From the IMG/VR virus record IMGVR_UViG_2740892369_000029: a stretch of 13,322 nt of DNA. One strand, given 5' to 3'. This document shows positions 8,689 through 9,449 of this stretch, in pieces; positions within the stretch are counted from its first letter, which is position 1; each line of letters starts with the position of its first letter. Origin of the DNA: a virus (taxonomy: Duplodnaviria > Heunggongvirae > Uroviricota > Caudoviricetes). The position numbers and the translations under genes were made by a program. The notes beneath the pieces are model-generated. The model saw nothing but the letters and a program-made list of their open reading frames with translations. It was not told the DNA's origin and ran no database searches.

Positions 8689-8889
8689 TTACCCATTAGC
8701 GCGGCTTAAGAGCTTATTTTTGAATTCACAATGGTCACGATATAACCATCTTGCTCGACCGTGGATAACTTTGGCTTTAGGCAGGTCGCCGGACTTAATC
8801 CGGTCGTAGATGAAGGTTTTACCAAAGCCAGTATCAGCCATGATGAATTTCAAATCAACCAGTGAATCAGGTTGTAGTTCGTGTTGCAT
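8689..8889 (-). CDS. torI: AlpA/TorI-family prophage excisionase / transcriptional regulator (winged-helix), 66 aa
   Basis: 66-aa protein MQHELQPDSLVDLKFIMADTGFGKTFIYDRIKSGDLPKAKVIHGRARWLYRDHCEFKNKLLSRANG with the AlpA-family signature (TGxxKTxIYxxIxxGxxPK...GRxxxW). GGAG Shine-Dalgarno 9 nt upstream. Length and position (last gene before the argW-type att core, downstream of lambdoid early-left prophage genes) match KplE1/CPS-53 torI. The symbol is assigned from memory and context, not from a search. Confidence 0.7.
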   Translation of the reverse strand: MQHELQPDSLVDLKFIMADTGFGKTFIYDRIKSGDLPKAKVIHGRARWLYRDHCEFKNKLLSRANG

Positions 8890-8933
8890 GAGTGCTATCT
8901 CCGAATAGGGAATCGAACCTGCAAATCAGGCAA

Positions 8934-8958
8934 TAAAAAACCGCCATCAGGCGGCTTG
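8934..8958 (-). terminator. Rho-independent terminator between the upstream prophage operon and the excisionase gene
   Basis: Plus strand AAAAAAACCGCCATCAGGCGG: GC-rich hairpin (CCGCC / GGCGG, 4-nt loop) with a T-run immediately downstream on the minus strand. It overlaps the stop codon of the small ORF ending at 8947. Confidence 0.5.
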
Positions 8959-9114
8959 GTGTTCTTTCAGTTCTTCAATTCGAATATTGGTTACGTCTGC
9001 ATGTGCTATCTGCGCCCATATCATCCAGTGGTCATAGCAGTCGTTGATGTCCTCTGCTTCGATAACTCTGTTGAATGGTTCTCCATTCAATTCACCTGTG
9101 ACTCGGAAGTGCAT
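8947..9114 (-). CDS. Small hypothetical prophage protein (about 55 aa from the internal ATG)
   Basis: ORF track 8947-9129 begins at a TTG. The ATG at 9112-9114 (MHFRVTGELNG...) is preceded by GGGGA about 9 nt upstream. Followed directly by the terminator hairpin. No recognisable domain. Confidence 0.4.
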   Translation of the reverse strand: MHFRVTGELNGEPFNRVIEAEDINDCYDHWMIWAQIAHADVTNIRIEELKEHQAA

Positions 9115-9149
9115 TTGTGATTTCCCCAAAAGATGCTTGAGTGCGCTTC

Positions 9150-9449
9150 TTATTCGATTCGCACACCTGGTATTTCGCCTTTTGAAATGGCTAAGTCATA
9201 AATTTGCGCAGCACTATACCCATCTCGCATCCATGAATCTAAGGCGCGAATAGCCTCGCTACGCTTTTTATCTTCTCTTTCATTTTTGATATCAACGAGG
9301 ACATCAACGCAATTAAGGCATATGTGGATTTTGTCCTTACATTCGATCATGGCAGCTTTACCATGATTTCCGCCACACAGTGAGCATAAATCTTCAGGGT
9401 CTGGCTGGTATTTCTGTAACGTTAAAGGGTTGAATGTTGAACAGGCCAT
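9150..9449 (-). CDS. Cys-rich putative zinc-finger prophage protein (two CxxC pairs), about 99 aa
   Basis: ORF 9150-9461. Three in-frame ATGs at the 5' end; the third (MACSTFNPL...) is preceded by GGAG at appropriate spacing. Motifs CSLC and CLNC. Size and position resemble the small yfdT-like genes of CPS-53-type prophages, but that is unverified. Confidence 0.55.
   Translation of the reverse strand: MACSTFNPLTLQKYQPDPEDLCSLCGGNHGKAAMIECKDKIHICLNCVDVLVDIKNEREDKKRSEAIRALDSWMRDGYSAAQIYDLAISKGEIPGVRIE

What the first reader, a model, noticed from the sequence alone, without database searches (positions are those of the whole stretch)
8908..8926. Second tRNA-derived fragment (T-arm with GGTTCGATTCC motif) just upstream of the excisionase start, about 285 bp from the 3'-end fragment
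Minus strand reads TTGCAGGTTCGATTCC, which is the variable-loop/T-stem/T-loop portion of the same tRNA-Arg as I recall it. The tRNA T-loop consensus is unmistakable, but the flanking bases do not complete a T-stem. This piece ends exactly where the 8601-8615 piece would begin in the tRNA. Together they read like a tRNA 3' half split by the roughly 285-bp excisionase cassette. That could reflect the attP arm structure of this phage family or an old recombination scar.
Basis: partly seen in the sequence, partly recalled or inferred. Interest (0 to 1): 0.45.

Follow-up and report, generated by a model that had tools for sequence, protein, structure and literature searches.

The report
T-loop-like box before excisionase gene
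A 16-base copy of part of the host arginine tRNA gene sits just in front of a prophage's excision gene; it is real and is conserved in related phages of many enterobacteria, so it probably helps control that gene and is not the leftover of a tRNA split in two.

Summary
Window 8909-8924 (- strand) reads TTGCAGGTTCGATTCC, identical to argW positions 46-61. The att core at 8600-8615 is argW 61-75 plus T, so the two pieces abut in tRNA coordinates. No tRNA or tRNA-like RNA is detectable.

The "tRNA half split by the excisionase cassette / old scar" reading is not supported. The 16-mer is the E. coli form of a 13-14-nt box, CAGGTTCGATTCCC. This box sits at a fixed place in the leader of TorI-type excisionase genes in phages of Escherichia, Salmonella, Erwinia, Serratia, Pantoea, Citrobacter and Edwardsiella, in 74 of 92 distinct upstream contexts. 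Its pairwise identity is 0.90, against 0.52 for torI third codon positions, so it is under selection. Relatives also keep a separate T-loop-like TTCGAT next to the core, so the box is a second copy, not the missing half.

The box is dispensable for in-vitro excision. It has been annotated before as a cII/pI promoter (HK620, Sf6) and as an "att core" (CUS-3); neither label fits.

Best guess: a cis-control element of xis expression that copies the attB left half-site and carries the GTTCG pentamer that TorI recognises. The mechanism is inferred, not shown.

The parts
8909..8924 (-). 16-nt identity to argW 46-61 (TTGCAGGTTCGATTCC); this is the finding
8908..8921 (-). Family-wide 'T-loop box' CAGGTTCGATTCCC in the leader of TorI-type xis genes. 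It contains the GTTCG pentamer and equals the attB left half-site, except for its last base (C; argW has T)
8921..8933 (-). TTGCCTGATTTGC, annotated in HK620 as a cII-binding site of a 'phage integration' promoter. The spacing is N5, not the N6 of lambda. The second TTGC supplies the first 4 nt of the 16-mer
8932..8957 (-). Intrinsic terminator (8-bp stem AAGCCGCC/GGCGGTTT plus T-run) shared with lambda and many lambdoid phages, immediately 5' of the box
8899..8902 (-). Shine-Dalgarno GGAG of torI, 6 nt 3' of the box; the spacer is variable in relatives (3-7 nt)
8689..8889 (-). torI/xis: 66-aa recombination directionality factor, 100% identical to K-12 TorI
8674..8694 (-). Two GGGTAAAAT repeats at the torI stop. 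They fit the IntS arm-type sites (TAAA motif) of the P arm
   Evidence: for the sequence; for the TAAA motif of IntS arm sites (the assignment here is an inference)
8616..8625 (-). AAGTAGATGT, the phage-side sequence left of the core (putative Int core-type half-site C). In relatives it reads ATTCGATGTA, which is T-loop-like
8600..8615 (-). att core CTGCAGGGGACACCAT (argW 61-75 plus T)
7235..8452 (-). Second tyrosine integrase (49% identical to IntS, internal stop) belonging to an element in tandem at argW. It is context, not part of the box

Best explanation
The 16-mer is the E. coli-lineage form of a conserved 13-14-nt 'T-loop box', CAGGTTCGATTCCC. The box belongs to the leader of TorI-type excisionase (RDF) genes. 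It lies between an upstream terminator (or a mosaic junction) and the Shine-Dalgarno sequence, and it marks the left edge of the xis-attP-int recombination module.

It is a cis-acting element kept by selection, not debris from a split tRNA. In sequence it is a copy of the left half of attB, that is, the argW T-loop plus the first two bases of the 3' T-stem. It stops where the probable 7-bp crossover segment TGCAGGG begins, which explains why it abuts the att core in tRNA coordinates.

Inferred mechanism (not shown): the recombination proteins of the module bind this DNA and damp or time xis expression. The favoured binder is TorI itself, whose five attL sites are built on GTTCG/GATCG/GTCCG. 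This would parallel the published repression of the intS promoter by TorI and IntS.

Shown here: sequence identity, position, conservation, specificity to TorI-type leaders, and absence of a tRNA. Shown by others: the box is not needed for excision in vitro. Inferred: protein binding and its regulatory effect.
For: - Identity and abutment to argW. Non-chance.
- Presence in 74 of 92 distinct upstream contexts of TorI-family genes from Escherichia, Salmonella, Erwinia, Serratia, Citrobacter, Pantoea and Edwardsiella, always 56-59 (rarely 65) nt before the DLKF codon. Information content is about 2 bits at G-T-T-(C)-G-A-T-T-(C)-C, above that of the SD and ATG columns. The 5' flank and the spacer to GGAG are variable.
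- Pairwise identity of the box is 0.90, against 0.52 (codon position 3), 0.87 (position 2) and 0.75 (position 1) of torI.
- Two independent mosaic junctions fall 0-4 nt 5' of the box. One is the lambda-type ORF, terminator and pI remnant. The other is the first 21 codons of a P22-type xis in g341c-like phages.
- Outside TorI-type leaders, the pattern box+GGAG+ATG in viral contigs hits mostly ARAGORN-called tRNA genes and otherwise tRNA-like 3' fragments: 67 TorI-type hits by the filter (one more on inspection) and about 52 others among 120 loci.
- The box is duplicated in tandem in the Erwinia-type phages and in L136.
- TorI site cores are GTTCG/GATCG/GTCCG, TorI represses PintS, and PtorI is uncharacterised (PMC2951348).
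- g341c-type attP shows a perfect inverted repeat GGTGTC|TGCAGGG|GACACC. This places the half-site/overlap boundary exactly where the box's identity to argW ends.
Against: - No binding or expression data exist for this site.
- GTTCG is part of every canonical T-loop, so its presence is not independent evidence for TorI.
- RDFs normally bind cooperative direct repeats one helical turn apart. Here there is one copy, and where there are two they are 13 or 16 bp apart.
- The five attL sites have C/T after GTTCG; the box always has A.
- No sigma-70-like promoter is found nearby for an operator to act on.
- 18 of 92 contexts lack the box, so it is not essential to the module.
- The box was located by allowing <=2 mismatches, which inflates its apparent conservation somewhat.
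- Every box-bearing locus targets argW, so co-variation with the target tRNA could not be tested.
Confidence: 0.5

Rival explanations
1. RNA-level leader element. In the xis mRNA the pyrimidine part of the box (AUUCC/AUUUCC) pairs with the Shine-Dalgarno GGAG(A)U, and GGUU pairs with AACC just before the AUG. This forms a hairpin that limits translation of the excisionase. The variable spacer is the hairpin loop.
For: - The same nested architecture recurs in the minimum-free-energy folds of most representatives. The strongest are L020 (-11.1 kcal/mol, z -2.24) and L022 (-10.7 kcal/mol, z -2.30).
- The SD is predicted paired with probability 0.77-1.00 in 13 of 15 leaders, and above the shuffled-box mean in 14 of 15.
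- The spacer varies in length (3-7 nt) and sequence like a loop.
- The position is fixed relative to SD/ATG, not to any upstream promoter.
Against: - RNAalifold finds no consensus structure, although the MAFFT alignment is shifted in the SD region.
- Energies are ordinary for most leaders. The window's own leader has z = -0.43, with 61 of 200 shuffles folding as well.
- A shuffled box of the same composition still pairs the SD at 0.6-0.8.
- In the Edwardsiella type the box folds on itself and leaves the SD free (0.20).
- Pairing does not explain the near-invariant C-G-A in the middle of the box.
- No clean compensatory changes were seen.
Confidence: 0.2
2. attB half-site mimic bound by the integrase. 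IntS recognises the box through its core-binding domain, as it must recognise the identical sequence in argW. This could bridge the box to the arm sites at the 3' end of torI and repress xis in the lysogen.
For: - The box equals the argW sequence immediately left of the probable overlap TGCAGGG, and its identity to argW ends at that boundary.
- The phage-side half-site is related in many relatives (ATTCGATGTA).
- IntS is made constitutively at a low level and already acts as a repressor at attL (PMC2951348).
Against: - The box does not co-vary with the phage half-site C, which drifts widely (AGTAGATGTC, ATTAGGTGTC, CTTCGGCGTA) while the box stays fixed.
- B-type half-sites are usually the weakest Int sites. 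A site selected for Int binding would be expected to resemble GGTGTC.
- No experimental support.
Confidence: 0.12
3. CII-activated pI-type promoter, as annotated in the HK620 and Sf6 records. TTGCCTGATTTGC would be the CII site and the rest of the 16-mer the promoter spacer, driving integrase expression on infection.
For: - HK620 and Sf6 GenBank annotations.
- Lambda has its genuine pI CII box TTGCGTGTAATTGC at the homologous place after the same terminator.
- The prophage encodes a CII-family protein.
Against: - The repeats are 5, not 6, bases apart.
- The first half-site is TTAC in K-12 and many other prophages. The second is TTCC or absent in Citrobacter-, Salmonella-, Erwinia- and Edwardsiella-type leaders that keep the box.
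- No -10/-35 pair is found.
- A transcript from here would carry xis as well as int. intS has its own mapped promoter in attL (PMC2951348).
- It does not explain conservation of GTTCGATTCCC.
Confidence: 0.08
4. One reading: an inert relic. An ancestral attP carried a contiguous argW 3' half (T-arm to CCA) that was split by insertion of the xis cassette, or the piece is a scar of an old recombination with argW.
For: - Exact abutment of the two fragments in tRNA coordinates.
- In Edwardsiella, Pantoea stewartii and Serratia-type leaders the box is flanked so that a nearly complete T-arm can be read (ACAGG TTCGATTC CCTGT; CAGG TTCGATT CCTG). Proteus argW has ACAGGTTCGATTCCTGT. A tRNA origin of the sequence is therefore plausible.
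Against: - Strong purifying selection.
- attP keeps its own T-loop-like copy next to the core.
- The consensus departs from argW right after CC, and the 5' TTG is lineage-specific.
- No contiguous terminator + box + TGCAGGGGACACCA arrangement exists in 5,426 complete E. coli genomes.
Confidence: 0.07
5. A genuine recombination site, as in the CUS-3 GenBank record. The 16-bp direct repeat (in argW and before torI) would be the attL/attR core, or a secondary site at which the prophage is excised or deleted.
For: - CP000711 labels TTGCAGGTTCGATTCC 'attL core' and 'attR core' and ends the prophage there.
- The two copies are direct repeats flanking the whole prophage except torI.
Against: - In NU14, which carries the same prophage end, torI, the CTGCAGGGGACACCAT core and dsdC follow the repeat.
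- The experimentally supported core is the 16-17-bp CTGCAGGGGACACCAT(T).
- Excision in vitro needs only 135 bp of attR.
- None of 5,426 E. coli genomes contains the predicted product argW-5'/box/torI.
Confidence: 0.03

Closest known systems
TorI and IntS sites overlapping the intS promoter in KplE1 attL (Panis et al. 2010, PMC2951348)
   Same: Same module and same proteins. Short sites built on GTTCG (TorI) lie next to a recombination gene and repress it. The box carries GTTCG in the same orientation relative to the core.
   Different: The published sites are in the P' arm/attL: five of them, 8 nt each, spaced 2 or 12 nt apart. The box is a single 13-14-nt element in the torI leader, outside the 135-bp attR that suffices in vitro. 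Binding to it has never been tested.
Dual-function RDFs: Apl of phage 186 and Cox of P2 (PMC7498355 abstract; Cox from my own knowledge)
   Same: An excisionase that binds both at att and at a regulatory region controlling its own operon.
   Different: Apl/Cox sites are arrays of direct repeats one helical turn apart between mapped promoters. Here there is one copy (two in some relatives, at 13 or 16 bp) and no mapped promoter.
Lambda pI promoter / CII box upstream of xis
   Same: Same genomic position: after the same small ORF and terminator, just 5' of the excisionase start. The HK620 and Sf6 records transfer this annotation.
   Different: The lambda box is TTGC-N6-TTGC and lies partly in xis. 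Here the spacing is N5 and the half-sites are not conserved. The conserved part is the T-loop-like sequence that lambda lacks.
tRNA-derived identity blocks in attP of tRNA-integrating elements (general knowledge, e.g. Reiter 1989, Williams 2002, recalled from memory)
   Same: Phage DNA identical to the 3' part of the target tRNA gene. The box is identical to argW.
   Different: Identity blocks are contiguous with the crossover site and restore the tRNA after integration. The box is 293 nt from the core, is not exchanged, and restores nothing.
CUS-3 'attL/attR core' annotation (CP000711)
   Same: Exactly the same 16-mer.
   Different: It is a direct repeat, not the crossover site. The annotation truncates the prophage before torI and the true attR.

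Membership tests
tRNA gene or tRNA pseudogene (tRNA-Arg CCU) | Detected as a cloverleaf or partial tRNA by ARAGORN or the Rfam tRNA covariance model | tested here: not met
   ARAGORN found 0 genes in the window. Rfam at E<=10 gave no tRNA-clan hit in 8300-9300.
tRNA gene or tRNA pseudogene (tRNA-Arg CCU) | T-stem completed and followed by the acceptor 3' strand | tested here: not met
   GCAGG-TTCGATT-CCCTA: only 2 (7-nt loop) or 3-4 (8-nt loop) pairs can form. The box is followed by the SD and ATG of torI.
att core of the IntS/TorI (KplE1, HK620, Sf6) module | Sequence shared by attP and attB at which strands are exchanged, found at both prophage-host junctions | tested here: not met
   The junction sequence is CTGCAGGGGACACCAT. 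The 16-mer is 293 nt inside the prophage. torI, the true core and dsdC follow it in NU14.
att core of the IntS/TorI (KplE1, HK620, Sf6) module | Recombination products with junctions at the site | tested here: not met
   No argW-5'/16-mer/torI junction in 5,426 complete E. coli genomes.
attP/attR arm of the module | Required for excisive recombination | not testable with these tools
   Published assay: a 135-bp attR (primer attR-IHF2, equivalent to window 8712-8693) is sufficient in vitro (PMC3509656). This implies the box is dispensable.
Lambda-type CII-dependent promoter (pI/pRE class) | TTGC-N6-TTGC straddling the -35 region | tested here: not met
   TTGC-CTGAT-TTGC has a 5-nt spacer, against lambda TTGC-GTGTAA-TTGC.
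Lambda-type CII-dependent promoter (pI/pRE class) | Half-sites conserved among relatives that keep the element | tested here: not met
   The first half-site is TTAC in K-12 and at least 20 loci. The second half-site is TTCC or absent in non-E. coli leaders.
TorI (RDF) binding site | Core pentamer GTTCG (variants GATCG, GTCCG) in the orientation of the attL sites | tested here: met
   The box contains GTTCG on the tRNA-sense strand, like I1-I5. Weak test: any T-loop contains it.
TorI (RDF) binding site | Several sites in direct repeat at helical spacing, bound cooperatively | tested here: not met
   Single copy in the window. Tandem copies in relatives are 13 or 16 bp apart.
TorI (RDF) binding site | Binding by purified TorI | not testable with these tools
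   Needs EMSA or footprinting.
SD-sequestering leader hairpin | Stable structure pairing the SD, beyond the composition-matched expectation | tested here: inconclusive
   Window leader z = -0.43. Two of 16 leaders have z < -2. The SD is paired 0.8-1.0 natively, against 0.6-0.8 with a shuffled box.
SD-sequestering leader hairpin | Compensatory base changes | tested here: inconclusive
   RNAalifold found no consensus pairs on the MAFFT alignment. By eye there are register shifts (GGUU:AACC, AGGU:ACUU, GGUU:AAUC) but no clean covariation.

The most novel reading that the evidence does not exclude
TorI-type recombination modules carry, in the excisionase leader, a selected copy of the bacterial half of their own attachment site (the argW T-loop). 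The module's recombination proteins would read this 'attB decoy' to set the level or timing of excisionase synthesis. Excision control would then be wired to the same DNA recognition that targets the tRNA gene. The T-loop pentamer GTTCG would be the common currency of attB, the TorI arm sites and xis autoregulation.
Probability: 0.25. Interest if true: 0.55.

Novelty: new variant of a known kind. Interest (0 to 1): 0.4.

Why it matters
The KplE1/HK620/Sf6 module is a reference system for prophage excision. Its authors state that the decisive control step is expression of the RDF gene, whose promoter and regulation are uncharacterised (PMC2951348). A strongly conserved, precisely placed element in that gene's leader is an obvious and easily testable candidate for this missing control.

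There is also a practical side. The same 16-mer has led to two conflicting database annotations, a CII/pI promoter and an att core. The att-core annotation truncates the CUS-3 prophage before its excisionase. Tools that call prophage boundaries from direct repeats at tRNA genes can make the same error.

Tried and rejected
- Cryptic tRNA or tRNA-like RNA: ARAGORN and Rfam were negative.
- Chance match: rejected.
- Integrase arm-type site: my first idea, from the GTTCG-rich P' arm. Rejected because the published arm sites carry TAAA and the GTTCG repeats are TorI sites.
- Sigma-70 promoter at the box: none found.
- Module flanked by a second box downstream of int: none found in Sf6, HK620 and six other loci.
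- Deletion or excision between the argW T-arm and the box: no such junction in 5,426 E. coli genomes.
- Ancestor-like contiguous box+core: not found. The 14 apparent full-length hits are two pieces 365 bp apart.
- Co-variation of the box with the phage core half-site: none.
- Co-variation with the target tRNA: untestable, because every box-bearing locus targets argW. Proteus-type relatives with a different gene order lack the box. Distant AlpA-like hits (L037-L040) were uninformative.
- RNA consensus structure: RNAalifold returned nothing.
- The first viral-contig scan with the TorI alignment returned only 100%-identical E. coli copies, so divergent queries were used instead.
- Panis 2007 (JBC) and King 2007 (the CUS-3 paper) are not held in the library.
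- The weak Rfam sRNA hits (STnc130, STnc420, isrK) are driven by the terminator hairpin and lie far below their gathering scores.

Full report
**1. The observation**

On the - strand the window reads ...AAGCCGCCTGATGGCGGTTTTTTATTGCCTGAT-TTGCAGGTTCGATTCC-CTATTCGGAGATAGCACTC-ATG (torI). The 16-mer TTGCAGGTTCGATTCC occupies 8924->8909.

I took argW from a K-12-derived genome, where it is the annotated tRNA-Arg next to intS. Window 8924-8909 is identical to argW 46-61, and window 8615-8601 is identical to argW 61-75. The two pieces share C61 and abut exactly. They lie 293 nt apart on the same strand, with torI (8889-8689) between them.

A match to the 16-mer, even with 2 mismatches allowed, is expected 0.01 times in shuffled windows. 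ARAGORN finds no tRNA. Rfam at E<=10 gives no tRNA-type hit in 8300-9300. The flanks do not complete a T-stem.

**2. Where the window comes from**

The region is 100% identical to E. coli E2865. There the order is yfdC, argW, intS, a P22-like prophage, torI, the att core, a second integrase, then a PapB/IS3/HsdR island. The second integrase is 49% identical to IntS and is broken by a stop.

The core at 8600-8615 is therefore the attR of an HK620/Sf6/KplE1-type prophage that also serves as the left junction of a tandem element. In such a chromosome the 16-mer occurs twice in direct orientation: once in argW and once before torI.

**3. Conservation**

The 16-mer with its context is identical in K-12 CPS-53/KplE1, HK620, Sf6 and CUS-3. 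957 of 5,426 complete E. coli genomes hold at least 80% of the 431-nt region.

I collected about 250 loci encoding TorI-family proteins from GTDB genomes and IMG/VR. 74 of 92 distinct upstream contexts carry GTTCGATTCC (<=2 mismatches) at a fixed distance from the gene. The taxa named in the genome records are Escherichia, Citrobacter, Serratia, Pantoea and Edwardsiella. Phage records add Salmonella (g341c-type) and Erwinia.

The consensus is C-A-G-GTTCGATTCC-C. Information content is close to 2 bits over GTTCGATT-CC, higher than at the Shine-Dalgarno and start-codon columns. The sequence 5' of it is unrelated between lineages, and the spacer to GGAG varies in sequence and length. The base before CAGG is G only in the E. 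coli lineage. So 13 nt of the identity to argW are family-wide and the extra TTG is local. The consensus then continues with C where argW has T.

In 18 representatives the 14-nt box has a mean pairwise identity of 0.90. The three codon positions of torI score 0.75, 0.87 and 0.52. One caveat is some ascertainment bias, because the box was located by similarity. Even so, the box is under purifying selection and is not an inert scar.

Several variants were seen:
- Two tandem copies occur in Erwinia-type phages (16-bp period) and in L136 (13-bp period).
- A nearly complete T-arm is readable in Edwardsiella and P. stewartii types (ACAGG TTCGATTC CCTGT) and in the Serratia type (CAGG TTCGATT CCTG).
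- For comparison, Proteus argW has ACAGGTTCGATTCCTGT.

A tRNA T-arm origin of the sequence is therefore plausible.

**4. Why it is not a split tRNA half**

The split model predicts that the phage DNA just left of the core is unrelated to the T-loop. In most non-E. coli relatives it reads (A/G)TTCGATGTA|TGCAGGGG. This has TTCGAT in the same register as argW GTTCGATTCC|TGCAGGGG. In E. coli phages this copy has drifted to AGTAGATGTC. attP thus has its own T-loop-like segment next to the core, and the box before xis is a second copy.

In g341c-type phages the core region is a perfect inverted repeat, GGTGTC|TGCAGGG|GACACC. This suggests a 7-bp overlap TGCAGGG flanked by integrase core-type half-sites; that is an inference. 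On this reading the argW T-loop plus CC is the bacterial left half-site. The box copies exactly that half-site and stops at the overlap boundary, and the attP/attB identity block starts at the same boundary. That accounts for the exact abutment without any splitting event.

No contiguous terminator + box + TGCAGGGGACACCA arrangement exists in 5,426 E. coli genomes.

**5. What it is not**

- **An att core.** The CUS-3 record labels the 16-mer 'attL core' and 'attR core' and ends the prophage there. In NU14, torI, the true core and dsdC follow it. The 16-17-bp CTGCAGGGGACACCAT(T) is the accepted, experimentally supported site. No genome shows the argW-5'/box/torI product of recombination between the two copies.
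- **A required att arm.** Excision in vitro works with a 135-bp attR whose primer corresponds to window 8712-8693, about 197 nt downstream of the box (PMC3509656).
- **A convincing CII-dependent pI promoter.** This is the HK620/Sf6 annotation. Lambda has the same ORF and terminator followed by its real CII box TTGCGTGTAATTGC and xis. In the window the repeats are 5, not 6, bases apart. The half-sites are not conserved in relatives that keep the box. No -35/-10 pair is found. The second TTGC of this lambda-like remnant supplies the first four bases of the 16-mer.

**6. Position in the mosaic**

The box is the leftmost conserved element of the xis-attP-int module. In lambda-type contexts the junction is right after ...TTTTTTATTGCCTGATTTGC. 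In g341c-type Salmonella phages the first 21 codons of a P22-type xis (90% identical to P22 Xis) run up to 3-4 nt before the box.

Two independent junctions that both preserve the box argue that it belongs to the functional unit of torI.

Of these, 67 have a TorI-type gene downstream by the filter used, and one more does on inspection. The other ~52 are mostly ARAGORN-called tRNA genes and otherwise tRNA-like 3' fragments. The arrangement is therefore specific to this gene family.

Proteus-type relatives, in which xis sits next to a convergent int and argW, lack the box.

**7. How it may work**

The published facts are as follows:
- TorI binds five sites in attL whose cores are GTTCG, GATCG or GTCCG.
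- IntS arm sites carry TAAA.
- TorI and IntS repress the intS promoter.
- The torI promoter is uncharacterised.
- The authors propose that excision control targets RDF expression (PMC2951348).

The box carries the consensus TorI pentamer in the same orientation and is identical to the bacterial half-site that IntS must recognise. My favoured model is a DNA operator read by the module's own proteins, TorI first and IntS second, that damps xis expression. This parallels TorI/IntS at PintS and Apl/Cox in 186/P2.

Weak points of this model:
- GTTCG is inherent to any T-loop.
- There is only one copy, and tandem copies are not at helical spacing.
- The base after GTTCG is always A, not C/T as in attL.
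- No nearby promoter was found.
- The box does not co-vary with the phage half-site.

The main rival is an RNA hairpin in which AUUCC/AUUUCC pairs with GGAG(A)U and GGUU pairs with AACC. The architecture recurs and the SD is mostly paired. However, energies are unremarkable (window z = -0.43). A shuffled box does almost as well. RNAalifold finds no consensus. Pairing also leaves the invariant CGA unexplained.

I could not discriminate these models by computation. Section the next steps lists the experiments that would.

**8. Comparison with what is known, and verdict**

The sequence has been seen before, under two labels: pI/CII site and att core. I found no description of it as a conserved T-loop-like element of RDF leaders in the papers I could search.

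It resembles known recombination-protein operator sites. It differs from them in being a copy of the attB half-site placed in the RDF leader, outside the functional att arms.

I rate it a new variant of a known kind, of moderate interest. It is a concrete, cheap-to-test candidate for the missing control of torI, and it is a source of annotation errors.

Noticed in passing
window 7235-8452 (- strand) and 1-7200: Right after the att core lies a second tyrosine integrase: 49% identical to IntS over the N-terminal 213 aa, with an internal stop, and a RefSeq pseudogene. It is followed by PapB, IS3, HsdR and IS66 genes. With argW-intS 41 kb away in E2865, this is a tandem array of two elements at argW sharing one core. 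Phages vB_EcoP-683R2 and 611R6 match the window 36 nt beyond the core, so this P' arm/integrase type also occurs in phages with torI.
   Followed up: partly
L010/L011 (CUS-3, CP000711) versus L013 (E. coli NU14): The CUS-3 GenBank record defines attL/attR 'core' as the 16-mer TTGCAGGTTCGATTCC and ends the prophage before torI. In NU14 the same prophage end continues with torI, CTGCAGGGGACACCAT and dsdC. The deposited prophage is therefore truncated by about 310 bp and lacks its excisionase.
   Followed up: yes
L007 about 2820-2850 and relatives; window 8594-8625: In Salmonella g341c-type attP the core is a perfect inverted repeat, GGTGTC|TGCAGGG|GACACC. In E. coli it is GATGTC|TGCAGGG|GACACC. 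This suggests a 7-bp overlap TGCAGGG and Int core-type half-sites. In many relatives the left half-site is ATTCGATGTA, which is T-loop-like.
   Followed up: partly
L007 2437-2500 (g341c) and 84 Salmonella phage records: Immediately 5' of the box these phages keep the first 21 codons of a P22-type xis (MESHSLTLDEACAFLKIS..., 90% identical to P22 Xis). The reading frame then runs through the box into the torI-type gene region. This is a fossil of module replacement. K-12 has a similar ...LDEACQFLKIS-coding remnant between yfdT and torI.
   Followed up: partly
window 8927-9129 (- strand): The small ORF (annotated as 168 nt) plus the terminator AAGCCGCCTGATGGCGGTTTTTT upstream of torI is the same unit that precedes xis in lambda (lambdap35 region). 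It is present in over 3,000 of 5,426 E. coli genomes, often several times. It is a very widespread lambdoid 'end of the early-left operon' cassette.
   Followed up: partly
window 8874-8878 (- strand; codons 4-5 of torI, CGAAC): The complement of the box's GTTCG lies 32 nt downstream of it, inside torI. It also occurs as CGAAC, CGAAT or CGAGC in g341c-type genes, but not in QHQL-type TorI genes. It could pair with the box in RNA or be a second inverted TorI-like site. It is probably a consequence of the His-Glu-Leu codons.
   Followed up: no
L026, L025, L137, L141, L186 (leaders of relatives): In several lineages the spacer just before GGAG forms a second TorI-type pentamer 12-13 nt after the first: GTTCG in P. 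stewartii, GTCCG in the Edwardsiella type and in L137/L141, and GATCG in L186. E. coli has ATTCG there. This is more frequent than the roughly 1/16 expected, but the lineages are not independent.
   Followed up: no
window 7993-8002 (+ strand): GTTCGATTTC (one mismatch to the box core) lies inside the second integrase pseudogene on the opposite strand. Three matches at <=1 mismatch occur in the window against 0.85 expected (9 of 200 shuffles reach 3), so this is probably chance.
   Followed up: yes
L032, L249-L253 (Proteus-type): TorI homologues here sit next to a convergent integrase and argW (xis and int at the same prophage end) and have no T-loop box. The box seems tied to the xis-attP-int gene order.
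   Followed up: partly
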